Source: a virus
IMG/VR virus record: IMGVR_UViG_3300020392_000005
Strand: one strand, 5' to 3'
Length of the DNA stretch: 64,000 nucleotides
The translations under genes and the position numbers were made by a program. Positions 2,344 through 55,100 of the stretch are shown here, one piece after another (position 1 is the first letter of the stretch; every line of letters starts with the position of its first letter). The notes beneath the pieces are model-generated. The model ran no database searches. It worked only from the letters and a program-made list of their open reading frames with translations, and was not told the origin of the DNA.

Positions 2344-2705
2344 TATAGTTTCTCTAACTCTCTTTTTATTAACTCGTCTTCCGTTAAAGCGATTAACTCT
2401 TTCGGATACAAGTAATCCAAATATGTAAAAACAGACTTTAATATCGGCCAGTATTTTGTGTCATTTTTATATAACAACAATGTAATACAAGCGTCTATAC
2501 CAAATACATTTTGCAACACTACAATATGATTTACAACAAGTCTAATCTTTATAGAACCAGTTGTTTCATATTTTCTGAATAACCTTTTGAGATATTTAAA
2601 TCTCTTTATATCATCCCAAAATTCTTTTTCAGTTTCAAATGTCGGATTGTCGTAATGCTTTTGTGCATACAACAACCAATTATCTTTGGTTATCTGTTTG
2701 AACAT
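2343..2705 (-). CDS. Conserved T4-like hypothetical protein (NWLLYAQKHYDNP family)
   Basis: YA.KHYDNP...EF.DD.KRFKY.KRL...NH motif. Confidence 0.75.
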   Translation of the reverse strand: MFKQITKDNWLLYAQKHYDNPTFETEKEFWDDIKRFKYLKRLFRKYETTGSIKIRLVVNHIVVLQNVFGIDACITLLLYKNDTKYWPILKSVFTYLDYLYPKELIALTEDELIKRELEKL

Positions 2706-2710
2706 CTAAT

Positions 2711-3166
2711 TTACACTAATTTAGCGTAAACCTTTGATGAACCGTTAGACAATGTTTCAAACTTAACCTCTAATTTCAAGTTATCAATTCCAGGACCATT
2801 ATCTACTACCACATCTTCAGGTTTAGTTTCAGTTGTTTTACCATATGTACCACCGAATTGTTTTACTTCAGCAGTAACCGTACCAGCGTCACCTTCTAAT
2901 TTAACAGGACTAATATCTAATCCTATTCTCATTAGATTTTCTCTTAATTTGTCAACTGCGTATTGTGGTTTAATGTATTCCATATCGGCTACACTACCTA
3001 CAAAAGCATTAACTCTTTTAAGAACGCTTGGGTCTTTCAAATTTGCTGTTCCTAATGAACCATCTTCAACTGCATTACTTGTAGAAGTACCAGTTGTAGC
3101 GGCACCATATTTGATAGCATTTGATTTCACATTGCCTTCTTTTAAATGTTCTTTAAAAGTTTTCAT
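2711..3166 (-). CDS. Hypothetical protein with capsid-targeting-like leader MKTFKEHLKE
   Basis: ORF track; GGAG RBS; leader resembles T4 internal-protein CTS. Confidence 0.65.
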   Translation of the reverse strand: MKTFKEHLKEGNVKSNAIKYGAATTGTSTSNAVEDGSLGTANLKDPSVLKRVNAFVGSVADMEYIKPQYAVDKLRENLMRIGLDISPVKLEGDAGTVTAEVKQFGGTYGKTTETKPEDVVVDNGPGIDNLKLEVKFETLSNGSSKVYAKLV

Positions 3167-3175
3167 TTTTTTCTC

Positions 3176-3385
3176 CTACTTATATTTGTCCGACTTTACT
3201 TTAGAACCATCTGCTCTAGGTATCATACCTTTTGCTTTTAGATGAGCCTTATCTGTAAAGCCTGCCTTACCTGCTTTGTATCGCTTCATAGCGTCAGCAG
3301 TATTAGGCGCTTTCTCATTTACTAAATCTTCTTCAAAGTCTTTCAACTCTTCGTCTTCGTTAAACTTTGTGAACGACTTAACCAT
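3176..3385 (-). CDS. Small hypothetical protein with MVKSFTKFNE leader
   Basis: ORF track; coupled to neighbours. Confidence 0.6.
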   Translation of the reverse strand: MVKSFTKFNEDEELKDFEEDLVNEKAPNTADAMKRYKAGKAGFTDKAHLKAKGMIPRADGSKVKSDKYK

Positions 3386-3614
3386 CTTTTTTATCTTCTT
3401 TTTTAAGTTGTTGTTCAGCGCTTCTCAATGTCAAATCGCTTTCTTCTTTTCTCATCAACTTTTCAAGTATCTGTACTGCACCGTGAACGGCGTTTAAACT
3501 TGCTCTGGACTTTGCTAAGTCTTCTTCAAGTCTTTGTACGGATTCTTGTAGTTTTGTTCTTTCGCCAAGAAGTTGATTATATTCTTTCTCAACGACACCT
3601 ATACTTAAACTCAT
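3378..3614 (-). CDS. Small coiled-coil protein
   Basis: Heptad pattern; AGGAG RBS. Confidence 0.65.
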   Translation of the reverse strand: MSLSIGVVEKEYNQLLGERTKLQESVQRLEEDLAKSRASLNAVHGAVQILEKLMRKEESDLTLRSAEQQLKKEDKKDG

Positions 3615-3634
3615 TATGTTCTCCTAATTATAAA

Positions 3635-4084
3635 TTACGCAACTACAAAACCGTGTCCGCCTATTACATTCCATTTAGAATTTTTAAATAAACATACAAC
3701 GGTTTCACCTTCAGCATTAAGAGTGATAGTTGAACCACCTCTTAAATTTGTTGGTGTTATTGTTATCGCATTAGAAGCTGTTCCTGTTGCGATAATTACT
3801 TTTTGTTGTCCATCAGCACCATCTTGTAATGATAATGCAGCTACACCAGCACTTTGGTCAACTTCAGTTATTGCTGAAGATGTATCAATTGCTGTATCTG
3901 TATGTGTTAACGCTTCAGACGCTTGTTTCAAACCTACGAAAGTAGGAATGTTTTCAAAAACATCTTTTGCGGTAACTCTTTTATTGATTGGTGTATTTTG
4001 GACATCATCAACAATATGAAATAAATCTCCACTTGCTAATGATTTACCTAGGTCGTCTAGGGCTGTGATTTTTTTATCTGCCAT
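3635..4084 (-). CDS. Probable virion structural protein
   Basis: MADKKITALD start; T/A/G-rich beta character; late promoter at 4151. Confidence 0.55.
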   Translation of the reverse strand: MADKKITALDDLGKSLASGDLFHIVDDVQNTPINKRVTAKDVFENIPTFVGLKQASEALTHTDTAIDTSSAITEVDQSAGVAALSLQDGADGQQKVIIATGTASNAITITPTNLRGGSTITLNAEGETVVCLFKNSKWNVIGGHGFVVA

Positions 4085-4150
4085 TTTATTCTCCTATAAT
4101 TCCGAGTTAACGGTAAACTACTCATTGCATTATACAATGACCATATACAC

Positions 4151-4158
4151 TATTTATA
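4151..4158 (-). promoter_or_regulatory. T4-type late promoter TATAAATA
   Basis: Exact consensus, intergenic. Confidence 0.8.
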
Positions 4159-4163
4159 CAAAC

Positions 4164-4189
4164 AAAAAGGGGACCACAAAGGATCCCCT
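4164..4189 (-). terminator. Rho-independent terminator
   Basis: GGGGATC-CTTTGT-GGTCCCC-TTTTTG on the minus strand. Confidence 0.7.
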
Positions 4190-4215
4190 AATTATTATAT
4201 TTGAATTTTTACTTA

Positions 4216-4710
4216 TTAAGCGTCTGCAAATTCTGTATCGTCACCTTGGTCACCTGCGATAGATGACATAGCAACTAGTACTTCTGTCTGCACTCTTCCA
4301 CTTCTTCCACCAGAACCGGCTACTCTTCGTACCCAACCAGCGTGTGCTGTTTTTGTAGTACCAACACCTTGTTCAGTAGTGTCAACACCGAATACTTTTG
4401 TCGGGTCTCCTTGAGTACCAGATGAATTGGCACTTTCAGAAGTTGTTACCGATTTAGGTTTTTCGGATAAAGTGTATGCTGTAGCACTTCCTACTGCTGT
4501 TAATGTTGCACCAGGTACACCAGCAACAACCGTTGCTGAAGTATCACTAGCAATAGCAGTAATTAAGTAATCTTCGCTTGCAACTCTAATATAGTCTCCA
4601 ACAGCTGCTTGTGTTGTTAAAGCAGTTGAAGAACCAGTAACCGCACCAGCAGAGCTGATTGCTACCGTTCCTGAAGCTGTTTTAGAGTCCTTGTTTCCCC
4701 ACGCACTCAT
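4216..4710 (-). CDS. Probable virion structural protein (MSAWGNKD...HAGWV...EVLVAM family)
   Basis: S/T/A/G-rich; own late promoter and terminator. Confidence 0.6.
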   Translation of the reverse strand: MSAWGNKDSKTASGTVAISSAGAVTGSSTALTTQAAVGDYIRVASEDYLITAIASDTSATVVAGVPGATLTAVGSATAYTLSEKPKSVTTSESANSSGTQGDPTKVFGVDTTEQGVGTTKTAHAGWVRRVAGSGGRSGRVQTEVLVAMSSIAGDQGDDTEFADA

Positions 4711-4770
4711 AGTTGTTCTCCTATTTCTAAATTAATTTTTAAGCTTAAAGATTAATCTAATCTTCGTTAT

Positions 4771-4778
4771 TATTTATA
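4771..4778 (-). promoter_or_regulatory. T4-type late promoter TATAAATA
   Basis: Exact consensus upstream of 4216..4710. Confidence 0.8.
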
Positions 4779-4779
4779 A

Positions 4780-5364
4780 CTATTTGAAACCTAGTTTTTT
4801 GAGTTGGGATATAGTGTTGGAAGTAGAGGTGTGTAGTATTCCGATACCGCCTCTTGCTTTGAATTGTGATATGTTCTTTGAATAGTCGTCAATCAGTATA
4901 GTAGGCATACCTCCTACTTTAGCAAAGTTTTGTTTCTCTCTTCTTTTTACTAGATTAACTTTTGCACCAGACATACCTAATCTTGTTCTAGCCCATTTAC
5001 TTTTGCCAGGTATACAATTAGGGTCAGTAGTTTGTTCTACGAAAGCAGATAATATGTGTGGGTCATACTTATTAATAAATGACCATAGTCTTTGACCACC
5101 TGGATTCCAAGGTAGATTACTCCAGAAGTTAGGAGTATTCATAATTGGTTTCCACTTATCTCTTATTGTCTTAAATTTTGTTCTAGGTTCTTTTGCCCAT
5201 TGGGACATAGGCATACCAACTGCTCTTTCTGCAGCCTGTTCAAAATTACACAGGACTCCGTCCATATCACAATAAATTCTAGGTAGTTTTTTGTCAACGA
5301 GAGAATACTCGTTTAGGTTTTTTACCTGATAGATAACATCTTGTCTTAATTCTTTAAACTTCAT
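4780..5364 (-). CDS. HAD-family 5'(3')-deoxyribonucleotidase-like phosphatase
   Basis: IYCDMDGVL motif I, ILS motif II, GK, LIDD motif IV; start moved to 5364 behind AAGGAA RBS. Confidence 0.75.
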   Translation of the reverse strand: MKFKELRQDVIYQVKNLNEYSLVDKKLPRIYCDMDGVLCNFEQAAERAVGMPMSQWAKEPRTKFKTIRDKWKPIMNTPNFWSNLPWNPGGQRLWSFINKYDPHILSAFVEQTTDPNCIPGKSKWARTRLGMSGAKVNLVKRREKQNFAKVGGMPTILIDDYSKNISQFKARGGIGILHTSTSNTISQLKKLGFK

Positions 5365-5390
5365 AGTGTTTCCTTGTCTCATTATGCTTT

Positions 5391-5439
5391 ATTATTACAC
5401 ATTTTCTAGCAAAAGTCAAGCAAAAAATGAGCAATTTTT
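5391..5439 (-). promoter_or_regulatory. Sigma70-like promoter with upstream near-palindrome (copy 1)
   Basis: TTGACT-17-AATAAT; plus strand aaaaaatgagcaattttt at 5422-5439. Confidence 0.6.
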
Positions 5440-5744
5440 TACACTTGATAGTCTATTTTAGGGTTTACTTCTACCTTATCTGACTTTGTTTTGTTATCTG
5501 TTAATTTCTTTTCAGGTGCCTTTGATTTAATGTCTAAAGGGTCTTTCTCTACTGCATTTTTAGGTAGAACCGTATCACCAGAATGGTCTTCTTTCTTTGC
5601 TCTTAATTTTGCAAGGTCAGAACCATCTATTTTACCGTTCTTGTTAACATCTAATTTCTTTTGTTTAGGTGTTAACTTTTCATTTACTTTAGAGATTGCG
5701 TCTTCTAACGAACCTGGTTTAATATCTAAATATCTTTTTCCCAT
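5439..5744 (-). CDS. Small protein with EF-hand-like loop (DVNKNGKIDGSD), probable internal-head protein
   Basis: DxNxxGxIDxxD motif after a VNE site. Confidence 0.6.
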   Translation of the reverse strand: MGKRYLDIKPGSLEDAISKVNEKLTPKQKKLDVNKNGKIDGSDLAKLRAKKEDHSGDTVLPKNAVEKDPLDIKSKAPEKKLTDNKTKSDKVEVNPKIDYQV

Positions 5745-7903
5745 TATTTACTTCCTCTAACTTTCTTTGCTAAATCTTTATCTGCACCGCCCCAAGTACC
5801 ACTTGATTTGGTTACAAAAGAGTTTACTCTAGCAAGTGCCCATTGTTGTTGTGTAGCACCTGGTCTATGACCACCTTTCCACGCAGCCATTCCTCTATCA
5901 TAAACTTTCTTTAAAATAGAATACGGCATACCTGTCTTATCAGCTTTGTTTCTTACTGCTTTAATACTTTCATAAGTCATTTTAGCAGGATGATTTTTGT
6001 TTTCTACTTTCATTTTTTTCTTTACCATATTAGTTGCGGTACCGTATCTTACATCATCGCCTTTTTCTTTACCATATCTATCTCTAAATGATTTCTTTGG
6101 TAAGTCATCAGCAACTTTGTGTACCATTTTTATTTGTTTTTTAGATAGGTCAGCTTCAGTTTTAAGTGCCTTCTCTAAATCTTTTGCTTGTTTAGTATGT
6201 GCCTTAACTGCACCTTTCAATTGTTTGATAACATCTTTTACAGCAGGTTTATCTTTACTATCTAAATCTTCTTTCTTCATTTCTTTGTCTCTTAATAATT
6301 TGTTTGCGAGACCTATTGATAATGGTACCTCACCTGTATCTGGATTAGGTTCAGGTTTTACAGCTTTATTCTTTTCTATTTCTAATTTCTGTTTAAGTAA
6401 TGCGACTTGGTCTTTTAGAGCAGCGATACTCTCTTTAGATTTATCTTCTTTCTCTTTAGACTTATCTTCGTCTTTACCTTTTAACATATCTTTTAATTTC
6501 ATTTTTTCCTCTGGTTCTTGTTCTTGTTCAAACATACTACCAAATATTCTAGCGTATGGGTCTCTTGCATATAAGTGACCGCCGTGTGTATCAAATCTAG
6601 TTTTTAACTTATTCATAAAGTCTTTGTTGGTTACATTACCTCTTGCACCTTTGGCAGGAGCATTAACACCAGCAGGTTTAAATAAGTCACCTGTATTCTT
6701 ATCTATGAAAGCGTGTATACTTCTCTTCTGTCCGTTTTCTGTATCGTGTATCTTAATGTATTTAGGACCTACCGTTTTCATTAAATCTCTTTTTTGTTTT
6801 GCATAAAGACCTTTGAAACTAGGATGATTTTTAATCTTGTCTTGTCCTATCTTAATGTAATCATCAACGCCTTTCATTACGGCAGCGTTTTCTGCTACAT
6901 ATTCTTCTTTCTGCATAACTCTTACATCATCGCCAAACTTTGCGACAACTTGTTTGTGTATGTTCTCTATATCTTTTGCACTATCAACTCTTACTTCTGA
7001 ACCAGAAGCTGATAGTTCACCACCACCAATCTTACCTTTAAACATATTGGCAACTTGTTTTGCTTGTGATGAGTTCTTACACATATATTCAATGTATTCT
7101 GCATATTCTTTTAATTCGTTTTCTTCTCTAATTCTTACATAAAATCTATTGTTAAATGGTGATTGATAACCGTCTGCTTTAGCACCTTTGTTTGATTGCA
7201 TATAAGCACTAGCGGCATTTCTTGCCATTGTCATATTAGGATAAACCTTATCTAAAACTTTTGTACCATTTCTTAATTTCATAGTCTCTTCTTTAGTAGG
7301 TTTCATACCTTGTTTTTTTAATCTGTCTATGTCTGCTTCTGACGGAGCGTTCTCATTAGTTTCTGTATTATTATCTTTATAGTCGTCTGTCTTTTTCTTT
7401 TGAATACCTTTAGCGCCGTGGTCACTAGTATGTGTTTCTGTAATCTCTTCCCAAGATTTATTTTCAAAAGCAGATAACTTAACTCCTTTAGGTACTTGAA
7501 TACCTTTCTGTATCATACGACTAGCAGCCATCGCTGAAAGAAAAGGAATGTCTGCTTTGTAAAGTTTAGGTAGTTGTGAATTTGTAATTTTGTCAAAGAT
7601 GTTTCTTAATTGATTAGCTCTTGCAAGTGAAATTCTTGCACCTTTAAGTCCTGAATATTCTTTTTTAAGTTTCTGTATTTGTGCGTCTGTAAACTCCCAC
7701 AACATACTTTCAGGTAAGTCTTCCTCACCTAGTATTGACTTAACCGTAGACAACGGAAGTTTCATCTTCTTTGCTATCTCTTCAGGTGATGAACCACCTG
7801 CGAACATAGTGGCAATTGTTTTCATCTTACCTTCGTCTAGCTGTATATCGTTTGCCCAGACTTCAGCGATTGCTTCTGCCATTGTCTTTTTGTATCTTGT
7901 CAT
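5744..7903 (-). CDS. Large modular protein, C-terminal DUF5824-like domain; probable gp21-processed internal-head polyprotein
   Basis: C-terminal KVYDRGMAAWKGGHRPGATQQQWALARVNSF; many x-x-E boundaries. Confidence 0.6.
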   Translation of the reverse strand: MTRYKKTMAEAIAEVWANDIQLDEGKMKTIATMFAGGSSPEEIAKKMKLPLSTVKSILGEEDLPESMLWEFTDAQIQKLKKEYSGLKGARISLARANQLRNIFDKITNSQLPKLYKADIPFLSAMAASRMIQKGIQVPKGVKLSAFENKSWEEITETHTSDHGAKGIQKKKTDDYKDNNTETNENAPSEADIDRLKKQGMKPTKEETMKLRNGTKVLDKVYPNMTMARNAASAYMQSNKGAKADGYQSPFNNRFYVRIREENELKEYAEYIEYMCKNSSQAKQVANMFKGKIGGGELSASGSEVRVDSAKDIENIHKQVVAKFGDDVRVMQKEEYVAENAAVMKGVDDYIKIGQDKIKNHPSFKGLYAKQKRDLMKTVGPKYIKIHDTENGQKRSIHAFIDKNTGDLFKPAGVNAPAKGARGNVTNKDFMNKLKTRFDTHGGHLYARDPYARIFGSMFEQEQEPEEKMKLKDMLKGKDEDKSKEKEDKSKESIAALKDQVALLKQKLEIEKNKAVKPEPNPDTGEVPLSIGLANKLLRDKEMKKEDLDSKDKPAVKDVIKQLKGAVKAHTKQAKDLEKALKTEADLSKKQIKMVHKVADDLPKKSFRDRYGKEKGDDVRYGTATNMVKKKMKVENKNHPAKMTYESIKAVRNKADKTGMPYSILKKVYDRGMAAWKGGHRPGATQQQWALARVNSFVTKSSGTWGGADKDLAKKVRGSK

Positions 7904-8199
7904 TTTTTTTCCTCGTATTCTTTAATGTCTATTATTAATCTACCTTCACCTTTGTGTAATCTATGATACACCATTTTAGGTATATAATACTCACTACCTA
8001 CTTTTAACTCTTCAGGCAACTGATTATCCATTTGAAGTTTCCAATTAACACCAGAGACAATCTTAATCTTTCTATCTAACTTGTCTCTATGCCAAATTAG
8101 TTCTTTGTCTTCAATGTCATTATTGAAAACTCTCTGGTGTATACCATTTGTTTTAAAATCAGTATACGGTTTACCAAAAGAAGTTTCCACCATTGCCAA
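7900..8199 (-). CDS. Small cupin-like conserved phage protein
   Basis: ELIWHRD...WKLQMDN..P...IPK..YHR..KG pattern; start uncertain. Confidence 0.6.
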   Translation of the reverse strand: MAMVETSFGKPYTDFKTNGIHQRVFNNDIEDKELIWHRDKLDRKIKIVSGVNWKLQMDNQLPEELKVGSEYYIPKMVYHRLHKGEGRLIIDIKEYEEKK

Positions 8200-8707
8200 G
8201 TCCTAAACTCTTTGCATATCTAGGCAAATTACAAGCCCAATATGACGCCTTTGTTTTATCCTTTTGACTAGCACATCTATGTCTAGCTGCAAAGGACTTT
8301 CTAGCTTTGGGGTCGTTTAGTTTCACTTTCAATCCTGTTGTATCTCCCCAAGTCACCTTCTTAATCTTATCGCCGTCTTTGACGAATACATAAAACTTTT
8401 TAGGTCCACCTCTTTTAGGTTTGTTCAAAGGAGGATTCTTTTCCTCTTCTGCAATCGGTATATCTAAAGGCACATTTTGCTCTTCGTATATACCAAACTC
8501 ACCTATATCAGTTGATAGTAATTCTCTATCCCAAGCACTATCTACTTCTAATAGACCTTCATTATACATATCTCTTGCCTCTCTAAACAAGGCATAAAAT
8601 TCTTCACTATGAATACGATAGATGTTATTCGCTAGAGGTATGTTATTCTCTATGTGATAATGCAACGACTTCGTTATCTTTTCTGCGTAATCACTAAATC
8701 TTAACAT
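8171..8707 (-). CDS. DUF6321-like protein
   Basis: LNKPKRGG.KKFYVFV...ARKSFAARHRC...YWAC; MLRFSDYAE leader. Confidence 0.65.
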   Translation of the reverse strand: MLRFSDYAEKITKSLHYHIENNIPLANNIYRIHSEEFYALFREARDMYNEGLLEVDSAWDRELLSTDIGEFGIYEEQNVPLDIPIAEEEKNPPLNKPKRGGPKKFYVFVKDGDKIKKVTWGDTTGLKVKLNDPKARKSFAARHRCASQKDKTKASYWACNLPRYAKSLGLGNGGNFFW

Positions 8708-11636
8708 ACTCTTTAAACGATTGCACTTTCAACCGTTCCTCCATCTTTTTCACAGCTTCGTCAATCTCTTTTTGATACTCTTCGCCGTATCGTTTCTTAT
8801 ATTTATCAATAGTCTCACTTGAAGCAGCCCACTCTTTTATATCTTCTGTGGTAATCTTCTCTGGTGCTTGTTCAGCACGCTTTTTAGTGTCTACTGATTT
8901 CTCATTTGGCGTCTGTCCAGGCGTGATTTCTTTAGTATGATTGGCATAATCAGCACCTATTTCGTATGCTTCTTTGCCGTACATCTGGTTAAATTTCTTT
9001 GTGTGTTTAGATGTTTTAGTCTTTGCACCTTTATCACCTGGGGCAGCTTTGTAATCACTATCTTTGTCTGATTTACTATACTTCTGTTTAGAGAAATGAC
9101 TTGCTCTCTTTTCTTTTTCACCTTTTTTCAAATCTTTATAGTATTTTTTAGGTTGTGTTCCGTCTTTCTTTTTGACATCTTTATCTTGTGGTAACTTCTT
9201 ACCATATGCTTCTTTTAGTTTCATATCTATTTCTTTCTCGGACATAGCTTCAAAACCATAATCTACATTTAAATCGTGTTCGTGTATTCTAACTTCATCT
9301 ACTTGTGGTGTAGGAATACAATCCCATATCCAACATTTGTGTAAGTTAGAATTGTTATCTTCTAATACAATGTAATTTGTTCCTCTTCTTACTACTTTAC
9401 CAGAAACATCTTGTTTTTGGTCTTCAACTATATCGTCTTGTTTAAATAATTGTTCTCTTATGTAAAGGTCTCTTACCTGCCATTGAGTAAAGTTTTCAAT
9501 AGAAGATATAGGTTTCATAGTACCTAATCCGTGAGATTGCATATTCGCTTGTAAGTTCATACCTTTTCTAACTAGACCAAACAACTTCTGTTTGTCTCTA
9601 AATGAAGTAGGTAATCCTCTTTGAAAAGATTTAAAATCATCTTTTGCGGCTGCGTCTCTCATCTTACTTGCACTCATACCTGTTGCACCTTCAGCGTCTG
9701 GGTCTCTTTCGCCAGCACTTACAACATTAATTTTATCGTACTCGTAATCAGTACCTCTTGCCTTTACGCCGTTATATCTGTTTAGTAGTGTTTCAAATTC
9801 TCTTACTCTATCTGAACCAACTACCATTGTTATTTCGTTTGCTTTACCATTTAGTTTATTGATAACTTCAATCGCTGTTCTAGCGCCAGGTATTTGTTTT
9901 ATCTTACTAGCATATCTAGGAAACATTGATTTCATAATTCTAATTTTGTCATCAACTTTTAATGGATTCTTTTTACTATCAAAAGAACCACTAGGTACTA
10001 TAATAAAATCATTTGCACCTACACTCGCAACTTTATTAATAAGTTTTTCGTGTCCTATTGTTGGTGGATTAAATCTACCAAAGGTAAATGCAATATGTTT
10101 TTTAGGTGTACCTGTTGCTTCTTTTAAACTATCTATTTCTCTATCTGTTATATTACCATCATCTAAAATATCTTTACACTTCTTATAGAATTTTAAGTAA
10201 TGGTATTTCTCTAACATTTTATAGATAACATTTTTAGGAAGTTTGTGTTTCTTACCAAACTCTCTAATTTCTTCTGGCGACATATCACTTTGAAATGCAG
10301 CTTGTCTGTCTTGTATAACTTGGTCGCCTGTATCAATGATAGATTGTATACTATCTTCAATCTCATCTAATTTATTTCTTATCATAGATTGTAGATTGTC
10401 AACATCATCATTTGATAATCCTCTTAATTCTTTGTAATCAATTATATCTCTTACTAGTTCGCCTTTGACAACATCTAACTCCATAACTTTCTTACCGAAG
10501 TCGTCCATATATTTGTCTTTGTCAAACTCTTCTTTCTCTGGTCTTCTGACAAACTTATTATTCTCTACATCAAATACGCCATCTGCCATACTATCATTTT
10601 TCTCTTTGACAGCAGGGTCTACTATTACAAAATAATTGATTGGGTGTTTAGTACCTGGTACTAGTTTACCATTTACATCTTTTAAGTTCTTTCTTAATGC
10701 CTCTAACGCAGCTTCTCTTTCTTCTTCTTTGACATCAAACAATATATTAATATCTAAATCTGCGTCTTCTCTATATCTCTTTGTTAAGATAGAACCGATT
10801 AATGAATACTTTTTGATTGGGTGATATTGTGCAAATTGTTTTAGTTGTGCGTCTATCATATCTTTCACAACTTTTTTTAATTTAGGATTGTTTGTTTCTG
10901 CGTCATCAAATACGCCAGGTGCATATCTCTTTCTAGGAATATCTATAATACTTTCCTGAATATTAACCATATTGATTAATTTTTTAGCAATCTTAACACT
11001 TTCCTCGTGGTCAGAAGGATAATGCCAACCTGCAATAACTCTTCCATAACCACACTCGTCAGCAAGTTCAATAAGATTATCTTTATGTTTAGGATATAAT
11101 TTACCATAGTATTCTGCAAGTAATCTACTTTGCAAACTATGACCTGATGGATACGCAGGAGTTTTCATAGTATCAGAAATTAATTCCATACTATCAAACT
11201 TTAAATTCATTGCGTCTGCAAGTTCATATGGTCTAGGTCTTTGAAATTTATTCTTGTAATATCTAACAACACCACTACCTGCTTTTTTAATCTCGCTTAT
11301 ATCACTATCTTTGTATTCTAAATTGTTTTCATCTAGGTATTTTTTTATACCATAAAAAGTTTCTTGGTCGTGGTTCTCTACACTTTTTTCTATATCACTA
11401 TTTCTACTCTTAAATAGTTCTATCATAGTGTTCATTTCATCTTTAGTTTCAGGACTATCGTTCTCTGGTGGCGTCTCTACATCAATATCTTTCCAGTTAC
11501 CATCTATATTCTGTACAGGTTTAGGTTCTACTTTAGGGTGTGTCAAATCATTTAGGTCTTCGTCAACCATCTTCTTTCTTTTAAGAAGTTCTTTCACATA
11601 GTTTCTATAATATGCGTTTTGAAAATTATCTGGCAT
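8694..11636 (-). CDS. Multidomain enzyme: PAP2/haloperoxidase-type phosphatase + pol-beta-type nucleotidyltransferase + HIGH cytidylyltransferase-like domain + basic tail
   Basis: K..FQRPRP / PAYPSGH / GRVIAGWHYPSD; GSILTKRYREDADLDI; FGRFNPPTIGH...VVGSDR...MSASKMR. Confidence 0.75.
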   Translation of the reverse strand: MPDNFQNAYYRNYVKELLKRKKMVDEDLNDLTHPKVEPKPVQNIDGNWKDIDVETPPENDSPETKDEMNTMIELFKSRNSDIEKSVENHDQETFYGIKKYLDENNLEYKDSDISEIKKAGSGVVRYYKNKFQRPRPYELADAMNLKFDSMELISDTMKTPAYPSGHSLQSRLLAEYYGKLYPKHKDNLIELADECGYGRVIAGWHYPSDHEESVKIAKKLINMVNIQESIIDIPRKRYAPGVFDDAETNNPKLKKVVKDMIDAQLKQFAQYHPIKKYSLIGSILTKRYREDADLDINILFDVKEEEREAALEALRKNLKDVNGKLVPGTKHPINYFVIVDPAVKEKNDSMADGVFDVENNKFVRRPEKEEFDKDKYMDDFGKKVMELDVVKGELVRDIIDYKELRGLSNDDVDNLQSMIRNKLDEIEDSIQSIIDTGDQVIQDRQAAFQSDMSPEEIREFGKKHKLPKNVIYKMLEKYHYLKFYKKCKDILDDGNITDREIDSLKEATGTPKKHIAFTFGRFNPPTIGHEKLINKVASVGANDFIIVPSGSFDSKKNPLKVDDKIRIMKSMFPRYASKIKQIPGARTAIEVINKLNGKANEITMVVGSDRVREFETLLNRYNGVKARGTDYEYDKINVVSAGERDPDAEGATGMSASKMRDAAAKDDFKSFQRGLPTSFRDKQKLFGLVRKGMNLQANMQSHGLGTMKPISSIENFTQWQVRDLYIREQLFKQDDIVEDQKQDVSGKVVRRGTNYIVLEDNNSNLHKCWIWDCIPTPQVDEVRIHEHDLNVDYGFEAMSEKEIDMKLKEAYGKKLPQDKDVKKKDGTQPKKYYKDLKKGEKEKRASHFSKQKYSKSDKDSDYKAAPGDKGAKTKTSKHTKKFNQMYGKEAYEIGADYANHTKEITPGQTPNEKSVDTKKRAEQAPEKITTEDIKEWAASSETIDKYKKRYGEEYQKEIDEAVKKMEERLKVQSFKEYVKI

Positions 11637-12303
11637 TGCTTCTCTTTAATTGTAGTTCTTTTTCTATCCACTTTTTCGCTACATAATTTTGTACAGGAAC
11701 ACTAATTAATCTCCTTACTTGTTTAAATACTTTTAATAGTTCATCTTCTTTTGCGTCATTGTTATCAACGACTATCATATTTCTCATACCAAACATATTT
11801 TGAAATCTACCGATATTATTTTGTACGGTTTGCCAACTCTTTCTAGTAATATCTTCTGGCACGCTTCTAGTTCTAATTCTATTTCTTTGTAATGCAACTT
11901 CTAAACTAGTGTTTACAAATATCATATAAGTGTCATAACCTAACATCTGTAGCATACTTCTTTGTTTATTAATTACATTATAATCTCTACCTGTTGCGTC
12001 TATAACTAAACCTAGTCTACCTCTAATGTATCTGTCCATCTGGTCGCCTGTAATCTGTTTTGCTCTTTGTCTCAATGGGTCTCTAGCACTTGCTTCATTA
12101 TCAGGCATTTTCAATGATAGACCTGCTTTCTTTAGATACATTTCAAATCTTGTATCAGAATTAACCATCTTTAAACCTAATCCTAAAGTTGTTCTATTGG
12201 TTACATAAGTCTTACCAGAACCAGGACCACCTGCAAGAAAAAATGCTTTGAATATTCCTGGGTCGTAAACACCTTCTTGTATTATAGATTTAAATTGTTT
12301 CAT
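11626..12303 (-). CDS. P-loop kinase (zeta-toxin/polynucleotide-kinase-like)
   Basis: GGPGSGKT, LVIDATG, ALQRNRIR lid; MKQFKSIIQE leader. Confidence 0.75.
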   Translation of the reverse strand: MKQFKSIIQEGVYDPGIFKAFFLAGGPGSGKTYVTNRTTLGLGLKMVNSDTRFEMYLKKAGLSLKMPDNEASARDPLRQRAKQITGDQMDRYIRGRLGLVIDATGRDYNVINKQRSMLQMLGYDTYMIFVNTSLEVALQRNRIRTRSVPEDITRKSWQTVQNNIGRFQNMFGMRNMIVVDNNDAKEDELLKVFKQVRRLISVPVQNYVAKKWIEKELQLKRSNAR

Positions 12304-12590
12304 ACTTTATATAGAGTATACTTTAAAGTTATCTCTTCTCCTTTTTTAATATCTTTTAATGTTTGCACATAAAACTTACCATCAACTTCTATCTTCTGTA
12401 CATTTGGTTTATCACTATGATTTATGAAACCACCTAGTGGCGTTCTATATAATTCTCTTCCATAGTTCAACCAACCTATACCCAAGTCTGTCCACTTGTC
12501 AATCTTCTTTGTTGCGAAAACTCCGTAACCTTCTATGGGCGATAACTTTAGTGTCAAATTATCAGGCAAAGGTCTATACTTATCTGTCAT
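12300..12590 (-). CDS. Minimal SET-domain protein (putative lysine methyltransferase)
   Basis: GYGVFA...GGFINHSDKPN...IKKGEEITLKY. Confidence 0.8.
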   Translation of the reverse strand: MTDKYRPLPDNLTLKLSPIEGYGVFATKKIDKWTDLGIGWLNYGRELYRTPLGGFINHSDKPNVQKIEVDGKFYVQTLKDIKKGEEITLKYTLYKV

Positions 12591-12894
12591 CTCCGCTACC
12601 GTGTATCTTGTCCTCTTCTAATCGTTTCTGTAATTTAAATATATTAGATTGTGCTACATCATCTAATCGTATATCTAAATCGTTTGCTAATGCACTAACA
12701 TACCATAGTACATCACCTAATTCTTTTTTAATATCTTCTTTTGAGAAAGTGTTACCGTCTCTCATATTCTTTTTAATTTTATCTGCAACTTCGCCAACTT
12801 CTGAACAAAGTCCTATCATAGGATAAGTTATCTTATCTTTTGCAGGATAAACTGCTGATGATATACTTAATGCTTGATAATCATTAAAGTTCAT
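12580..12894 (-). CDS. mazG: MazG-like NTP pyrophosphohydrolase
   Basis: GLCSEVGEV...ELGDVLWY...N..KL..R...GSGDDR. Confidence 0.85.
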   Translation of the reverse strand: MNFNDYQALSISSAVYPAKDKITYPMIGLCSEVGEVADKIKKNMRDGNTFSKEDIKKELGDVLWYVSALANDLDIRLDDVAQSNIFKLQKRLEEDKIHGSGDDR

Positions 12895-13468
12895 TTTGTA
12901 TCTCCTTTATAATATCTTTCGCAATATCACCAGGCTCTTTTCCTTGTGCCTTAATACTAACAAAGCCTGGTTGTCTTTTGAAGTAATCAATCGCTGGACC
13001 TGTTTCTTTTTTATACAAGGCAATTCTATCAGATATAATATCTGGTTTATCATCGGCTCTTCCTCTCTTTGTCAATCTTCTAATTACTTCTTCTTTATCC
13101 ACATCTAAAAATACAACAACATCATAACCTATGCCAAACTTTTCCATATCTCTAACTTGTTGCATATATCTAGGATAACCATCTAGTACATAACCTTTTG
13201 TTGCACTTGCAACTTCTTTTCTAATAAGTTTTAAAACTATATCGTTAGGTGCAAACTTACCTTGGTCTAATAAATTCTTAATCTTCTGACCATCAGGACC
13301 ACCTTTGTCAATTTCTTTTCTCAATAAACCACCTGGGTATATGTGTTTGATACCAAAGTGTCTAATGATGTATTCAGAATAGGTTGACTTACCTGAACCA
13401 GGACCACCCATAATGACTACACGAACCATCTTGGCTTCTTTTAAAAAATTAACAAATGTCTGTACCAT
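12884..13468 (-). CDS. adk: Adenylate kinase (short, LID-less type)
   Basis: GGPGSGKST, G.LLR, LDGYPR, RGRADD. Confidence 0.85.
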   Translation of the reverse strand: MVQTFVNFLKEAKMVRVVIMGGPGSGKSTYSEYIIRHFGIKHIYPGGLLRKEIDKGGPDGQKIKNLLDQGKFAPNDIVLKLIRKEVASATKGYVLDGYPRYMQQVRDMEKFGIGYDVVVFLDVDKEEVIRRLTKRGRADDKPDIISDRIALYKKETGPAIDYFKRQPGFVSIKAQGKEPGDIAKDIIKEIQNEL

Positions 13469-13502
13469 TCTTTCTCCTGTTTCTGTTTCTAAAAAAATCT
13501 TT

Positions 13503-13634
13503 CTATCCTATTAAATACATTATTAAAATACCGATTGCTAATCCTTCTAACCACGCCAGATATACTGACTTCAAAGGATGCTCGTGTATGAAATTAAACT
13601 TCCAGTCTAATATTTCTTTTATAAATTTTTTCAT
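13503..13634 (-). CDS. Small membrane protein, 43 aa (MKKFIKEILDWKFNFIHEHPLKSVYLAWLEGLAIGILIMYLIG)
   Basis: Hand-translated; ATG overlaps upstream TAA; hydrophobic C-terminus. Confidence 0.6.
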   Translation of the reverse strand: MKKFIKEILDWKFNFIHEHPLKSVYLAWLEGLAIGILIMYLIG

Positions 13635-14851
13635 TATCCTTTTACCCAATCTTTTGCGATAGTAAAGTTTGCTCTACTAAACTCTAATCTATCTACTAGT
13701 TTGACTACATTACCTATCTTATCTGTAGCAACAAATCCTTCAGGTGCGGTAACTCTATAACCACTATCAGTTCTAATAAAGTGACCAACACTTTGTATCT
13801 GTGCTAACTTCTGCAATATTGTATTCTTCGCTGTTTGCAAAGTCATATATGTTGCGATAGAAAAATATAGTGCTTGTTTGTTTCTATCAATAAATTTTAA
13901 ATTGTTATCTTTTGCATTTATATATTTCTCTTTACCTCTAGCAGTTTTCTTACTATCTATTTCTGCTTGTATAAAGTTCTCATAGTAATCTCTAAATCTA
14001 TCTTGTAATGTTCTAACACTACCCATACCACCTTTACTATCTCTAATGACAGAATTGAAAAATGTCTTTAGTCTGAAACCAACTGACAACTGGTCATTAC
14101 TATCAAATAGATTTAACAAAGGTCCTGCCTTCTGTAAACTACCTTCTGCCATTCTTAATTGTGCATTAAACTTAGCAACTTCTGCTCTACTCATTGTTGC
14201 ACTACCACTAGTATCTTTGTATTGTGCCGATGGTACGAATACACTAGCAGAATTGATACCTCTTACATAACCGAAACTTGCATTTAAACTATCCATTGCA
14301 TTACCATTATATTGAGTATGAAATACAATACCTAGTCTTGCTCTTGCAACTTTTCTACCAGCGCTACTATCAACTGGTAAAGCATATGTAATTGTGTTAG
14401 GTGTAAAAGAAATCATAGATTGACCATCTATGTTTACTACTTTCTTTTCTTCACTAGTAAATAATAAATCGCCTTGTAAGATACCTCTTATACCTAACTT
14501 TTTTAATTCTCTTAAACAGACTTGAAGTTTAGACGCAACAGGACCACTATGGTTTCTGTTTATGTCTGAAACGGTATAATTGATTTTGGGAGTTCTATTG
14601 AATACAGATTTTGTTCCAACAAAGAATTTGTTGTTTTCAGGATTGATACCACAAACTATGGCAGGTGCACCGTCCCATTTAACGGTTACATTTACTTTCT
14701 TGCTTGAGTTACCTACAAGCATTTTTTGTAAAGACTTTAAAAATGCAATCGCATTTCTACCACCTTTAGCGCCGTCATTTATAATACTATCTTCTAAATG
14801 CTCTAGGTGTGTGTTCGTACCTGAGCTTGAATATCCTTTAAAACTAAACAT
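13634..14851 (-). CDS. DUF6267-family protein, possible ATP-dependent ligase-type nucleotidyltransferase
   Basis: HLEHLED, TVKWDGAP, QGD, PEGFV, VKLVDR. Confidence 0.7.
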   Translation of the reverse strand: MFSFKGYSSSGTNTHLEHLEDSIINDGAKGGRNAIAFLKSLQKMLVGNSSKKVNVTVKWDGAPAIVCGINPENNKFFVGTKSVFNRTPKINYTVSDINRNHSGPVASKLQVCLRELKKLGIRGILQGDLLFTSEEKKVVNIDGQSMISFTPNTITYALPVDSSAGRKVARARLGIVFHTQYNGNAMDSLNASFGYVRGINSASVFVPSAQYKDTSGSATMSRAEVAKFNAQLRMAEGSLQKAGPLLNLFDSNDQLSVGFRLKTFFNSVIRDSKGGMGSVRTLQDRFRDYYENFIQAEIDSKKTARGKEKYINAKDNNLKFIDRNKQALYFSIATYMTLQTAKNTILQKLAQIQSVGHFIRTDSGYRVTAPEGFVATDKIGNVVKLVDRLEFSRANFTIAKDWVKG

Positions 14852-14918
14852 TTTTGTCCTTCATTTTTTCCATATACAAATAAACTATCCATCAATATAA
14901 TACTCACTTCGTCTCTTA

Positions 14919-14926
14919 TATTTATA
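14919..14926 (-). promoter_or_regulatory. T4-type late promoter TATAAATA heading the enzyme block
   Basis: Exact consensus. Confidence 0.8.
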
Positions 14927-18123: not shown

Positions 18124-18436
18124 CAAGGATTGTACCATTCTTTATTCTTTCATCTAATATTTCAACTAATATATCACCAATATACTTTATAAATGCAGGT
18201 TGGTCAATATCCAAGTCCAGTTCTTCTGGTTTTCTCAATAGAGTCCATTGAAACTGCAAAGGAAGATTGCCGTCAGATTGTTCTTCATTACCAAACTGCA
18301 CCTTGCCGTATTTGTAGATTACATCTTTGTACTTGCCTTCAACGATTTTTATACTACTAAAATCGTCTCCGTCTCTTTGTACATAGACATATCTCTTATT
18401 CGCCGTAGAGGAATTTTCTTTTTGCTTGTTCATCAA
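18113..18436 (-). CDS. Conserved hypothetical protein at the T4 gene 40 position
   Basis: [12 protein letters not shown]...IGDIL; lies between uvsX and 41. Confidence 0.55.
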
Positions 18437-51819: not shown

Positions 51820-53157
51820 TTACGCCAAGTTAACTACTTGTACTTTTCTGTAATATCTGTTTGAGTTAGCAGCACCAGAACCGTCAATAACAGCGTCAGA
51901 CGAAGCACTAGCTTCAGCAAATGGGTTTGCTTGTAAGCCGTATCTTGTCTTAAATCCGATTTTCGGTTGGAAAGTGTCCTGACCAACTGCTCTAACCATT
52001 TGTAATGGTACATAAGGGCAGTAGAACATACCAGCGTCATAAGGAGAAGTTCCTTTATAACCTACTACATAGAATTGTTTTGTAGCAGCGTTTGCTGAAT
52101 ATGGGTCAATGTATACTTTAAATCTGCCGTTTAATACACCAGCAAATGTGTTTCCTGTGTCATCAACATTTAGGTTGTTGTTTAACGCAGGTGTGTAATC
52201 AAGTATACCAGCCATTTGTAATGCACTAGCAACATCAGAAGAACAGATAAGGATATTTCCTTTTCCTCTTCTTGTTCTTTGTGCGATTACATTAGCGTCT
52301 CTTTCTAATTGGAACATTAAACCTTTAAATCTTTCAACAGACCATCTACCGTTGGAATCAGTATCTAAATCAAAGATTCCTGCGTTAGTTGTATCAGTTT
52401 GAGCACCTTTTTCTGAATTGATATAGATTGTTCTTACGACTTCTCTATTGATTTCAGCAAGGATTTCAGCAGAAAGAATATTAGCAAGTTCAGTTTCAGC
52501 GTCTAAGCCGTGAATTGCTTTAAGGTCTTGTGCTAATTCCATTGTGTACTCAGCTTTAAGAGCTCTTGACTTAGCAGTTACCGTTGATTTCTCAATTGAG
52601 AAAGCCATTTCAGCAAATGCGTTACCAGAAGAGTCCCCTAGGGCTTCAGCAGAAGCTGTTGCCATTCCAGTTCCAGTAGTATAAGTACCAGCTGGGGAAT
52701 CGTTAAGTACAGATGGGTTGTTTTGTGCAGGCGAATTTGTTGAAGTTCCAGCAGATCCAGGAATGTTTGCGTTAGCAGCGTTTCCAGAAAATTTACTTTC
52801 TGCTTCATCAAATAGCGCTTCAGTTCCGCCTTGAGTTTTATATCTGCTTCTCATTGCAAATATAAGTCCAGTCGGTCCGCTCATAGGTTGAACGCCAGCG
52901 ATATCGTATGCGATAAGGTTTGGCATTGCTCTTCTTACAAGACTAATTAGGATTGGATCCCAGTTAGCAATGTTAGAACCTGTAGCGTTAGTTGGAGCAG
53001 CTTCCGATAAGAAAGCAGCATCCTCTTTCAGCGCTCTTTCTTGGTTTTCCAAGATAACGCTGGTTACAGCTCGTTTATAGCTATCCGTAACCTTTGGAAG
53101 GTCAGGATGGTCTAATACTGGCTGCCATTTTTTTTGGTAAGTTTCAGATAAGTACAT
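51820..53157 (-). CDS. 23: Major capsid protein (T4 gp23)
   Basis: [42 protein letters not shown]. Confidence 0.98.
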
Positions 53158-54452: not shown

Positions 54453-55100
54453 TTATAGTTTTTTTAAGAAATCTTTGAATACATTTGCCTTAGCTTCTGC
54501 AATTTTCAGTCGTTTTGCTTGTGCTATATACTCTTTATACTCTTCAATCTCTCTTTCTTTTATAACGCCATTGTCCCAAACCCACTCTTTATTCTCCATA
54601 ATACCTTCTACGAAAGCGTCTGGAGCGCTTGGGTCTGCAACTATATCAGCAGCTGTTGCCAAATAGAAGTCTTTTCCGACTACTGCTTGACCACCTCTAC
54701 CTCTTTCTAATGAACCCATACCACGACTTGATACGCCTAATTTAGCGCCCTCATCTATAAGATTTTTTACTATCTTACCGTATGGAGTGTCCATTATCTT
54801 CGCCTCACCAATAAAATTGTTTCCATCTTCGTGTATATCTGTTATCATATGAGATACACGCTCAAGGTTTACCGTAGGTCCGTCAGGATGTCCTAACTCG
54901 CCGAACGCTCTTTTTTGGTTGACAAATTCTCTATTATATCTACTAACTTCTTTTGCTAGAGTTTCTTTAGGATAAACTCGTCCATTTCTATTTTTGATTT
55001 CTGATTGTAAGAAGACACCACGGATTTTGTAATTCTTTTTTCCGCCTACATCTTCGCATATGTACTCAACATTTTCAACTTGTTCAGTAATTAGTTTCAT
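54453..55100 (-). CDS. 21: Prohead protease (T4 gp21)
   Basis: NRNGRVYP, GELGHP, GVSSRG.GS, DIVADPSAPDA. Confidence 0.97.
   Translation of the reverse strand: MKLITEQVENVEYICEDVGGKKNYKIRGVFLQSEIKNRNGRVYPKETLAKEVSRYNREFVNQKRAFGELGHPDGPTVNLERVSHMITDIHEDGNNFIGEAKIMDTPYGKIVKNLIDEGAKLGVSSRGMGSLERGRGGQAVVGKDFYLATAADIVADPSAPDAFVEGIMENKEWVWDNGVIKEREIEEYKEYIAQAKRLKIAEAKANVFKDFLKKL

What the first reader, a model, noticed from the sequence alone, without database searches (positions are those of the whole stretch)
8694..11636. 980-aa phosphatase / pol-beta NTase / HIGH-NTase fusion with gp21-type sites at each domain boundary
Seen: the PAP2-type domain ends at IQE228|S, the pol-beta-type NTase (GS...DADLD) ends at LKE506|A just before FGRFNPPTIGH, and the HIGH-domain region ends at LKE809|A before a basic module. 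A CTS-like string (QSFKEY) sits at the extreme C-terminus. Known: gp21 cuts after (I/L)-x-E, and gp23 here has LSE|A. Inference: a viral enzyme polyprotein matured inside the prohead. The PAP2 unit looks like an added cassette.
Basis: partly seen in the sequence, partly recalled or inferred. Interest (0 to 1): 0.78.

Follow-up and report, generated by a model that had tools for sequence, protein, structure and literature searches.

The report
Capsid-tagged three-enzyme fusion protein
A marine T4-like phage encodes a 980-residue chain of three enzymes whose start and two of three domain joints resemble T4's capsid-targeting tag and head-protease cut sites, so it is probably loaded into the phage head, cut up and injected with the DNA, although nobody has yet shown this directly.

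Summary
The ORF is real.

**Domains.** Three intact catalytic domains are confirmed:
- a class-A acid-phosphatase-like PAP2 domain
- a minimal pol-beta nucleotidyltransferase (NTase)
- an NMNAT/PPAT-like HIGH nucleotidyltransferase

These are followed by a small beta domain, a disordered basic tail and a C-terminal helix.

**The three proposed cut sites.**
- E228|S and E506|A are conserved across 121 homologues. They sit in the only two short low-confidence linkers of the AlphaFold model.
- Both correspond in position to the N-terminal leaders of unfused homologues, for example MKKFSEFLSE|A. That leader closely matches the T4 capsid-targeting sequence MKTYQEFIAE|A.
- LKE809|A is not conserved.

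**Links to the virion.**
- Homologues of the HIGH module are detected in several cyanophage virion proteomes.
- In S-CREM2, every ORF carrying this leader is in the virion proteome.
- The gene lies in a roughly 10-kb operon behind a T4-type late promoter.

**Other points.**
- The PAP2 unit is a true cassette: a 93%-identical homologue lacks exactly that unit.
- The C-terminal "CTS" is really the leader of the next module, which is fused to this protein in other phages.
- Cleavage and packaging of this protein remain untested.

First-reader notes from this scan on the same genome reached a similar idea. Nothing was found on other DNA.

The parts
8694..11636 (-). 980-aa ORF (P0001): PAP2 / pol-beta NTase / HIGH NTase fusion
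11589..11636 (-). N-terminal leader MPDNFQNAYYRNYVKE16|L. Residues 10-16 match the T4-CTS-derived pattern [FYW]..[FYW][ILV].E.
   Evidence: This is one of only 5 matches in the window proteome, and 3 of those 5 are N-terminal. Predicted helix 4-24.
10962..11570 (-). PAP2 (class A acid phosphatase-like) cassette, residues 23-225. The motifs KNKFQRPRP, PSGH and R-x5-H-x3-D are intact.
   Evidence: Absent from the 93%-identical P0003 and from the 781-aa forms.
10950..10961 (-). Joint 1, IQE228|S: candidate prohead-protease site in a low-confidence linker
   Evidence: Equals the N-terminal leader end of PAP2-less homologues, e.g. MSFKDFIKE|SIIDIPR.
10539..10940 (-). Minimal pol-beta nucleotidyltransferase core, residues 233-366 (G281 S282, D293xD295 invariant)
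10128..10520 (-). Long-helix region following the NTase core, residues 373-503
10116..10127 (-). Joint 2, LKE506|A: candidate prohead-protease site in a low-confidence linker
   Evidence: Positionally equals the CTS cleavage bond of standalone homologues, MKKFSEFLSE|A ... FAFGRFNPP.
9549..10103 (-). HIGH-signature nucleotidyltransferase, residues 512-696 (GRFNPPTIGH and GMSASKMR invariant)
9306..9449 (-). Small five-strand beta domain, residues 730-777, shared with cyanophage cytidyltransferases
9207..9218 (-). Joint 3, LKE809|A: present here and in the nearest relatives only
8850..9206 (-). Lys-rich basic, predicted disordered module, residues 811-929. Optional in homologues.
8727..8849 (-). 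Conserved C-terminal helix, residues 930-970
8706..8723 (-). C-terminal QSFKEY string, the leader motif of the next module
8171..8707 (-). Downstream 178-aa ORF (ends ...GNGGNFFW). Homologous to the C-terminal part of Melnitz gp18, where it is fused to the HIGH enzyme.
11626..12303 (-). Upstream AAA_33/Zeta-type P-loop kinase with leader MKQFKSIIQE|G. Fused in frame to this protein in P0015.
14919..14926 (-). T4-type late promoter box TATAAATA heading the operon
54453..55100 (-). gp21-type prohead protease of the same phage
52999..53010 (-). gp23 maturation site LSE52|A. Served as positive control for the leader/cleavage PSSM.

Best explanation
The protein is a late-expressed cargo of the phage head, built like beads on a string.

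Proposed mechanism:
1. A T4-type capsid-targeting leader at the N-terminus takes it into the scaffolding core of the prohead.
2. The gp21-type protease then cuts after Glu in the flexible linkers. The likely bonds are E228|S and E506|A, possibly also E16|L and E809|A.
3. This releases a PAP2 phosphatase, a minimal pol-beta nucleotidyltransferase, and an NMNAT-like adenylyltransferase carrying a basic tail.
4. These stay in the head and enter the host with the DNA, acting on nucleotide, cofactor or RNA-end chemistry before any phage gene is expressed.

Status of each step:
- Shown: the architecture, the intact catalytic motifs, conservation and placement of two joints, their homology to N-terminal leaders, the late promoter box, and the PAP2 cassette.
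- Inferred: targeting, cleavage, ejection and substrates.
For: 1. The T4 CTS is MKTYQEFIAE. Residues 4 and 7 serve targeting and residues 8 and 10 serve processing; gp21 cuts after L/I-x-E.
2. Unfused HIGH homologues begin MKKFSEFLSE|A, MKKFNAFLIE|A or MKSFLQFLKE|A. The E|A bond lies about 11 residues before GRFNPP, as E506|A does here.
3. PAP2-less homologues begin MSFKDFIKE|SIIDIPR or MKTFKE|S, which is joint 1.
4. Joints 1 and 2 lie in the only two short pLDDT<50 linkers. Overall pTM is 0.31, so the domains are not modelled as one packed unit. Shuffle P=0.005.
5. E506-A507 is kept in 117/121 homologues, and [ILVF]xE|[SA] at joint 1 in 102/121, despite about 50% overall identity.
6. NMNAT-like or cytidylyltransferase homologues were detected by MS in virions of S-CREM2, S-SCSM1, S-CBWM1 and a further phage.
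7. In S-CREM2, the predefined pattern at the N-terminus hits 3 ORFs, all in the 52-protein virion proteome (P=0.012). A post hoc broadened pattern gives 5/5 (P=6e-4).
8. In T4, the same strict pattern picks IPII and IPIII out of 271 ORFs.
9. A PSSM was built from those leaders. Among 19,783 window positions it ranks the gp23 maturation site 2nd and the E809 site 4th.
10. TATAAATA lies 68-75 nt upstream of the operon's first gene in the window and in two syntenic relatives, and no terminator-like site was found on the coding strand inside the operon.
11. Fusion and fission of modules occur exactly at these joints: the kinase is fused in P0015, and inserts in P0065/P0074 are flanked by a repeated EIDSLKxE| motif.
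Against: - There is no proteomic or biochemical datum for this protein or for any pelagimyophage-like relative.
- The leader of this particular sub-clade (MPDNFQNAYYRNYVKE) is offset by 6 residues and diverges from the canonical M-K-x-F-x-x-F-L-x-E. The PSSM ranks E16 only 201st and joint 1 only 390th.
- Strict T4 specificity ([IL] at P3, E at P1) is met at joint 1 in only 41/121 homologues (F at P3 in 54, D at P1 in 19) and at joint 2 in 72/121 (K at P3 in 29).
- Joint 3 is not conserved.
- The relaxed pattern also hits UvsX, a likely false positive.
- The S-CREM2 authors themselves warn that abundant late proteins may co-purify with virions.
- A shallower proteome (S-SCSM2R, 23 proteins) did not list a homologue.
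Confidence: 0.5

Rival explanations
1. It is an ordinary cytoplasmic multi-domain enzyme of late nucleotide or cofactor metabolism and is never packaged. On this reading the leader-like strings are only the retained starts of formerly separate genes (amphipathic N-terminal helices favoured in AT-rich phage genes), and homologues seen in virion proteomes are contaminants.
For: - Neighbours are metabolic-looking enzymes: adenylate kinase, MazG, P-loop kinase, NT5C.
- [IL]xE is frequent by chance.
- Joint 3 is not conserved, and P3/P1 deviate from T4 rules in many homologues.
- The S-CREM2 authors caution about co-purification.
- UvsX is a false positive of the relaxed pattern.
Against: - The leader pattern is rare (5 strict matches in about 19,800 window positions) and concentrated at N-termini.
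- It coincides with MS detection in S-CREM2 and with known CTS proteins in T4.
- E506-A507 is conserved inside a linker that is predicted to be unstructured.
- Nucleotide-metabolism enzymes behind a late promoter are hard to explain if they serve replication.
Confidence: 0.25
2. It is packaged into the head through its leader but is not cut internally. It would travel as one 113-kDa tri-functional enzyme, like T4 Alt, which loses only short terminal propeptides. The conserved joints would then be vestiges of the fusion events.
For: - T4 Alt (76 kDa) and CTS fusions as large as beta-galactosidase are packaged whole.
- Deviations from [IL]xE at the joints in many homologues.
- Fusion could serve substrate channelling between phosphatase and transferases.
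Against: - In fused forms the aromatic targeting residues at joint 2 have decayed, while L-x-E|A (processing residues) persists.
- Modules occur free or fused at exactly these points.
- No confident inter-domain packing (pTM 0.31).
Confidence: 0.2

Closest known systems
T4 internal proteins IPI-III and Alt (CTS-tagged, gp21-processed, ejected head proteins)
   Same: - N-terminal leader with aromatic residues at P7 and P4, aliphatic at P3 and Glu at P1, followed by a small residue.
- The phage has gp20-gp23 with a gp21-type protease.
- Late promoter.
- Cargo diversity with a conserved tag.
   Different: - A multi-enzyme chain with candidate internal sites.
- The leader is offset in this sub-clade.
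- The enzymes differ (phosphatase, NTases) from Alt's ADP-ribosyltransferase.
- Nothing has been shown experimentally.
Cyanophage 'cytidyltransferase'/NMNAT-like core protein (T4-GC 190; S-SCSM1 ORF91, S-CREM2 ORF154, Syn9 gp184)
   Same: HIGH domain plus beta domain at 38-43% identity. A CTS-like leader ending E|A before GRFNPP. Detected in virion proteomes.
   Different: The cyanophage proteins are 286-409 aa and stand alone. Here the module is fused behind PAP2 and a pol-beta NTase and carries a basic tail.
Ejection/inner-body proteins of jumbo phages (phiKZ, SPN3US) cut at several sites by a gp21-related prohead protease
   Same: Several cuts after Glu in head-internal proteins, including enzymes.
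   Different: A different phage lineage and a different motif (S/A/G-x-E), and no sequence relation.
Class A non-specific acid phosphatases (PhoN, PhoC, 7f17)
   Same: PAP2 fold and all three signature motifs.
   Different: No signal peptide. It is embedded in a phage fusion protein, with about 20-25% identity.
Minimal nucleotidyltransferases (MNT antitoxins, HI0073, 2rff)
   Same: Size and fold of the catalytic core, and the GS...DxD motif.
   Different: Weak structural scores (Z 5.9-6.5). It is followed by long helices, and there is no HEPN partner nearby.

Membership tests
PAP2 / class A acid phosphatase superfamily | Three signature motifs: K-x6-RP, PSGH, (S)R-x5-H-x3-D | tested here: met
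   KNKFQRPRP, YPSGHS and GRVIAGWHYPSDH are visible. Pfam 33.7 bits against a 27.2 cut-off.
PAP2 / class A acid phosphatase superfamily | Fold similarity to solved members | tested here: met
   7f17: profile E=4.5e-9; Foldseek E=3e-7, TM(target) 0.63-0.69.
Pol-beta nucleotidyltransferase superfamily | hG[GS] ... D-x-D catalytic motif on the conserved sheet | tested here: met
   G281, S282, D293 and D295 are invariant in 121 sequences. NTP_transf_2 scores 25.3 bits against a 21 cut-off.
Pol-beta nucleotidyltransferase superfamily | Assignment to a functional subfamily (MNT, CCA-adding, CD-NTase, ANT) | tested here: inconclusive
   Best hits are minimal NTases at Z 5.9-6.5. CD-NTase, ANT and Pol mu hits all have Foldseek E>0.01.
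HIGH-signature (cytidylyltransferase-like) nucleotidyltransferases | (H/T)xGH motif and ISxSxxR-type motif in a Rossmann fold | tested here: met
   GRFNPPTIGH and GMSASKMR are invariant. Pfam 33.6 bits against 21. Foldseek matches NadD, PPAT and NadM.
NMN/NaMN adenylyltransferase (NadD/NadR/NadM equivalogs) | Score above the curated equivalog cut-offs | tested here: not met
   TIGR01526 scores 20.7 against 341, and TIGR00482 scores 20.8 against 112. So it is NMNAT-like in fold only, and the substrate is unknown.
T4-type CTS-bearing head-internal protein | N-terminal ~10-aa leader with targeting residues (aromatic at positions 4 and 7) and processing residues (I/L at 8, E at 10) | tested here: inconclusive
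   The pattern Y..YV.E is present but at residues 10-16, not 4-10. Most family members start M[KRS]FK[DE][FY].
T4-type CTS-bearing head-internal protein | The phage encodes the gp21 protease and gp22 scaffold into which the CTS docks | tested here: met
   phrog_207 at 4e-79 and phrog_237 at 8e-84.
T4-type CTS-bearing head-internal protein | Physical presence in the virion and removal of the leader | not testable with these tools
   Only homologues have MS evidence.
T4-type CTS-bearing head-internal protein | Expression at the time of prohead assembly | tested here: inconclusive
   A TATAAATA box lies upstream of the operon and keeps that position in two relatives. This is motif evidence only, with no transcript data.

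The most novel reading that the evidence does not exclude
The whole late operon of about 10 kb (roughly 4780-14926) is a capsid-delivered first-strike enzyme kit. It would include the DUF6267 protein, adenylate kinase, P-loop kinase, this PAP2/NTase/NMNAT-like chain and the DUF5824 proteins, plus the RimK-like ligase-protease elsewhere in the window.

Because the prohead protease would separate modules again after translation, gene fusion and fission at protease-site linkers would be selectively neutral. That would explain the mix-and-match architectures seen in thousands of marine homologues.

The T4 capsid-targeting code would then be conserved from coliphages to cyanophages and pelagiphage-like myoviruses. 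[quoted passage not shown]
Probability: 0.35. Interest if true: 0.85.

Novelty: new variant of a known kind. Interest (0 to 1): 0.7.

Why it matters
If true, abundant ocean myoviruses inject ready-made enzymes, not only DNA. These enzymes could reset host nucleotide, NAD or RNA-end chemistry, or blunt abortive-infection systems, in the first seconds of infection.

It would give a simple sequence rule, the T4-like leader, for predicting head cargo in uncultured T4-like phages. It would explain repeated but doubted proteomic detections of NMNAT-like proteins and kinases in cyanophage particles.

It would also show a route of protein evolution in which a maturation protease makes gene fusions reversible at the protein level. 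All of this is directly testable with cultured relatives such as Melnitz, S-CREM2 and S-SCSM1.

Tried and rejected
- **Whole genome:** not held.
- **Literature:** a search for the database spelling 'cytitidyltransferase' found nothing. No paper in the library links a CTS to cyanophages. The pelagimyophage paper treats adk as an auxiliary metabolic gene (AMG) and does not mention this gene.
- **PDB sequence searches:** the NTase module, the HIGH module and the DUF6267 neighbour gave nothing usable.
- **Sigma-70 promoter scan:** below the chance level.
- **Second proteome test:** failed. The S-SCSM1 supplement holds no virion list as text. The 23-protein S-SCSM2R proteome lists no homologue.
- **Leader PSSM:** did not rank joint 1 or E16 highly. 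It is dominated by the aromatic targeting positions, so it is a poor test of internal sites.
- **Assembly artefact:** considered and rejected as an explanation of the fusion. The same architecture occurs in many independent clusters and on 130-156-kb contigs.
- **Programmed frameshift joining the kinase to this ORF:** considered and rejected. A stop lies 3 codons upstream in frame, and I saw no slippery sequence by eye.
- **C-terminal string as a functional CTS:** considered and rejected. It is the leader of the next module.
- **T4 hit at gp61.4:** the strict-pattern hit comes from my ORF start lying upstream of the annotated one, so it is an artefact.
Full report
**What is there**

The finding's coordinates hold a single uninterrupted ORF on the minus strand, 8694-11636, 980 aa.

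Domain evidence:
- Pfam finds PAP2 (124-213), NTP_transf_2 (264-324) and CTP_transf_like (518-616), all above their gathering scores.
- PHROGs finds 'cytidyltransferase' families over 497-835 at 1e-66 to 1e-69.
- The three PAP2 signatures, the GS...DxD of the pol-beta fold and the T-x-G-H plus GMSASKMR motifs of the HIGH fold are intact. The latter two sets are invariant in 121 homologues.
- Structure comparison places the first domain with class A acid phosphatases (7f17, PhoN, PhoC) and the third with NadD, PPAT and NadM.
- The second domain matches minimal nucleotidyltransferases only weakly (Z 5.9-6.5).
- NMNAT equivalog models score far below their cut-offs. I therefore call the third enzyme NMNAT-like in fold, with unknown substrate.

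**The setting**

The window is a marine T4-like myovirus with 33.7% G+C. It carries gp17, gp18, gp19, gp20, gp21, gp22 and gp23 at 51-62 kb. Its nearest named relatives are cyanophages and the OM43 phage Melnitz.

The gene sits in a tightly packed co-directional block:
- DUF6267 protein
- adenylate kinase
- MazG
- SET-domain protein
- AAA_33/Zeta-type kinase
- this gene
- two small ORFs
- a 719-aa DUF7717/DUF5824 protein

The same order is found on 149-kb and 155-kb contigs of two relatives.

A T4 late-promoter box, TATAAATA, lies 68 nt upstream of the first gene of the block, and it keeps that position in both relatives. All eight such boxes in the window are on the coding strand and lie next to gene starts. 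Two of them precede gp21 and gp22. No terminator-like site on the coding strand interrupts the block.

**Is the fusion real, and is PAP2 a cassette?**

More than 2,600 database proteins match. Full-length forms (974-985 aa, 70-75% identical) occur on contigs of up to 156 kb, so the fusion is not an assembly error.

The closest relative of all (P0003, 93% identical) has the same first 22 residues and then continues at ...VKE|SIIDIPR. It lacks exactly the PAP2 unit. Other forms:
- P0015 has the upstream kinase fused in frame.
- Some forms carry 55-100-aa inserts between the NTase and HIGH modules.
- Some lack the basic tail.
- Some continue past the C-terminal FK[DE][FY] string into a DUF5824 domain.

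In Melnitz gp18 the HIGH enzyme is fused to the homologue of the window's next ORF, 8171-8707. The C-terminal QSFKEY is best read as the leader of the next module.

**The sites**

[IL]xE alone is uninformative: there are 14 copies against about 10 expected. Three other observations carry weight.

First, the AlphaFold model (mean pLDDT 70.8, pTM 0.31) shows confident separate domains. It has only two short inter-domain stretches below pLDDT 50, at 227-232 and 506-511, which are exactly joints 1 and 2. Joint 3 lies inside a long disordered stretch, 778-827. Both short linkers holding an [IL]xE bond has P=0.005 on shuffling.

Second, conservation across 121 homologues:
- Joint 1 reads [ILVF]-x-E|[SA] in 102, with D at P1 in the other 19.
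- Joint 2 reads x-x-E|A in 117.
- Joint 3 is kept in 2.

Third, both conserved joints are the N-terminal leaders of unfused relatives:
- PAP2-less proteins begin MSFKDFIKE|SIIDIPR, MKTFKE|S or MIKE|S.
- Standalone HIGH enzymes begin MKKFSEFLSE|A, MKKFNAFLIE|A or MKKFSEIIE|A. The E|A bond lies 7-11 residues before FGRFNPP, as with E506|A here.

**The link to T4**

The T4 capsid-targeting sequence is MKTYQEFIAE. Residues 4 and 7 govern targeting and residues 8 and 10 govern processing. gp21 cuts after L/I-x-E, and Alt is trimmed at both ends. The marine leaders share M, K, the two aromatic positions, the aliphatic P3, the Glu and the small P1' residue.

A pattern taken from the T4 tag, [FYW]..[FYW][ILV].E, behaves as follows:
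- It matches 5 times in about 19,800 positions of the window proteome.
- Three of those matches are within 20 residues of an N-terminus: this protein at 10-16, adenylate kinase, and a RimK-like ligase-protease. This is 3 observed against 0.13 expected, P=3e-4.
- In T4 itself the same pattern picks IPII, IPIII and the uncharacterised gp61.1 out of 271 ORFs. A fourth hit is an ORF-start artefact.

**Independent check with proteomics**

Published virion proteomes report NMNAT-like or cytidylyltransferase proteins in S-CREM2, S-SCSM1, S-CBWM1 and another estuarine phage. The authors caution that co-purification is possible. The S-SCSM1 and S-CREM2 proteins begin MKSFLQFLKE|A and MKNFSSFLTE|A.

Across the whole S-CREM2 genome:
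- The predefined relaxed pattern starting within the first 9 residues hits three ORFs: SAM hydrolase, APH-like kinase and cytidylyltransferase. All three are among the 52 of 221 ORFs detected in virions (P=0.012).
- A pattern broadened after seeing the data adds ORF13 and ORF136, both also detected (5/5, P=6e-4).

A PSSM built from these six leaders plus T4 gave these ranks among 19,783 window positions:
- 1st: the adenylate-kinase leader
- 2nd: the gp23 maturation site, an unplanned positive control
- 4th: KEIDMKLKE809|A

It ranks joint 2 sixth within the protein, but joint 1 and E16 poorly, because it is dominated by the aromatic targeting positions.

**Reading**

The most economical account is that this family, like its unfused relatives, is head cargo tagged by a T4-type leader. 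The conserved E|S and E|A bonds in flexible linkers would then be prohead-protease sites that release the modules.

At joint 2 of fused forms the aromatic 'targeting' residues have decayed, while the L-x-E|A 'processing' residues persist. That fits an internal site that no longer has to target. Free and fused versions of each module meeting at exactly these points fit a protease that makes fusion harmless.

Weak points:
- There are no direct data for this protein.
- The leader of this sub-clade is offset and atypical.
- Many homologues have F or K at P3 or D at P1.
- Joint 3 is unsupported outside close relatives.
- The relaxed pattern gives a false positive at UvsX.

I put the packaged-and-cut model at about 0.5, packaged-but-uncut at 0.2 and not packaged at 0.25.

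**What the enzymes do after entry** cannot be settled here. A phosphatase, a P-loop kinase next door (sometimes fused), a minimal NTase and an NMNAT/PPAT-like transferase all act on phosphate esters of nucleotides, cofactors or RNA ends. NAD or cofactor resynthesis, RNA-end healing and neutralisation of abortive-infection effectors are all open possibilities, and none was tested.

**Earlier notes.** First-reader notes of this scan on the same genome had already proposed CTS-tagged late cargo for 708-14926 and for this gene. They are unchecked notes on the same DNA, not independent evidence. My tests above were run without relying on them.

Noticed in passing
window 12884-13468 (-): The adenylate kinase carries an 11-residue extension MVQTFVNFLKE|A before the canonical start (MVRVVIMGGPGSGKS). 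It is the top-scoring leader in the whole window with the PSSM and is conserved in relative L010.
   Followed up: partly
window 24785-26272 (-): A 495-aa protein between gp43 and regA begins MQVPKFKDFITE|K. It combines a RimK-family ATP-grasp ligase (TIGR00768, 7e-43) with a retropepsin-like aspartic peptidase domain (RloA3-like, 4e-6).
   Followed up: partly
window 11626-12303 (-): The AAA_33/Zeta-toxin-type kinase has the leader MKQFKSIIQE|G. Its stop overlaps the start of the 980-aa ORF by 11 nt. The first about 35 residues of the 980-aa protein resemble the kinase C-terminus, and the two are one protein in P0015.
   Followed up: partly
window 708-1769 (-) and homologues P0021, P0023, P0066; Melnitz gp18 (L003 5953-7905): A Cys-containing module, CWTGYKQVGMKKKGNKQVPNCVP, opens the 353-aa ORF here. 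In relatives it appears as an insert between the basic tail and the C-terminal helix of the fusion protein.
   Followed up: no
window 5744-7903 (-): The 719-aa protein has DUF7717 (372-445) and DUF5824 (640-702). Its C-terminus matches the C-terminus of the 'cytidyltransferase' family phrog_3041, which is further evidence of module shuffling.
   Followed up: no
window 13634-14851 (-): The DUF6267 protein (405 aa) is the N-terminal half of phrog_455. The C-terminal half of that family is the HIGH enzyme, so the two are fused in other phages. No PDB sequence match.
   Followed up: partly
window 12300-12590 (-): A 96-aa SET-domain protein (PF00856, 4e-12) lies inside the same late operon.
   Followed up: no
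S-CREM2 OR473000 (L004-L007), ORFs 6, 12, 13, 14, 136, 154: All non-structural proteins reported in the S-CREM2 virion proteome that I examined share the leader M-K-x-F-x-x-F-L-x-E. ORF12 has it at residue 19, which suggests a mis-called start.
   Followed up: yes
T4 NC_000866 18966-19130 (L024): T4 gp61.1 is a 54-aa hypothetical protein that begins MKTFKEFIKE|D. This is a CTS-like leader close to the marine ones.
   Followed up: no
window 18396-19415 (-) and L011 1745-2776: The N-terminus of UvsX/RecA-like recombinase (…FLKDIIKE|T) matches the relaxed leader pattern. This is probably a false positive and marks the limit of that pattern.
   Followed up: partly
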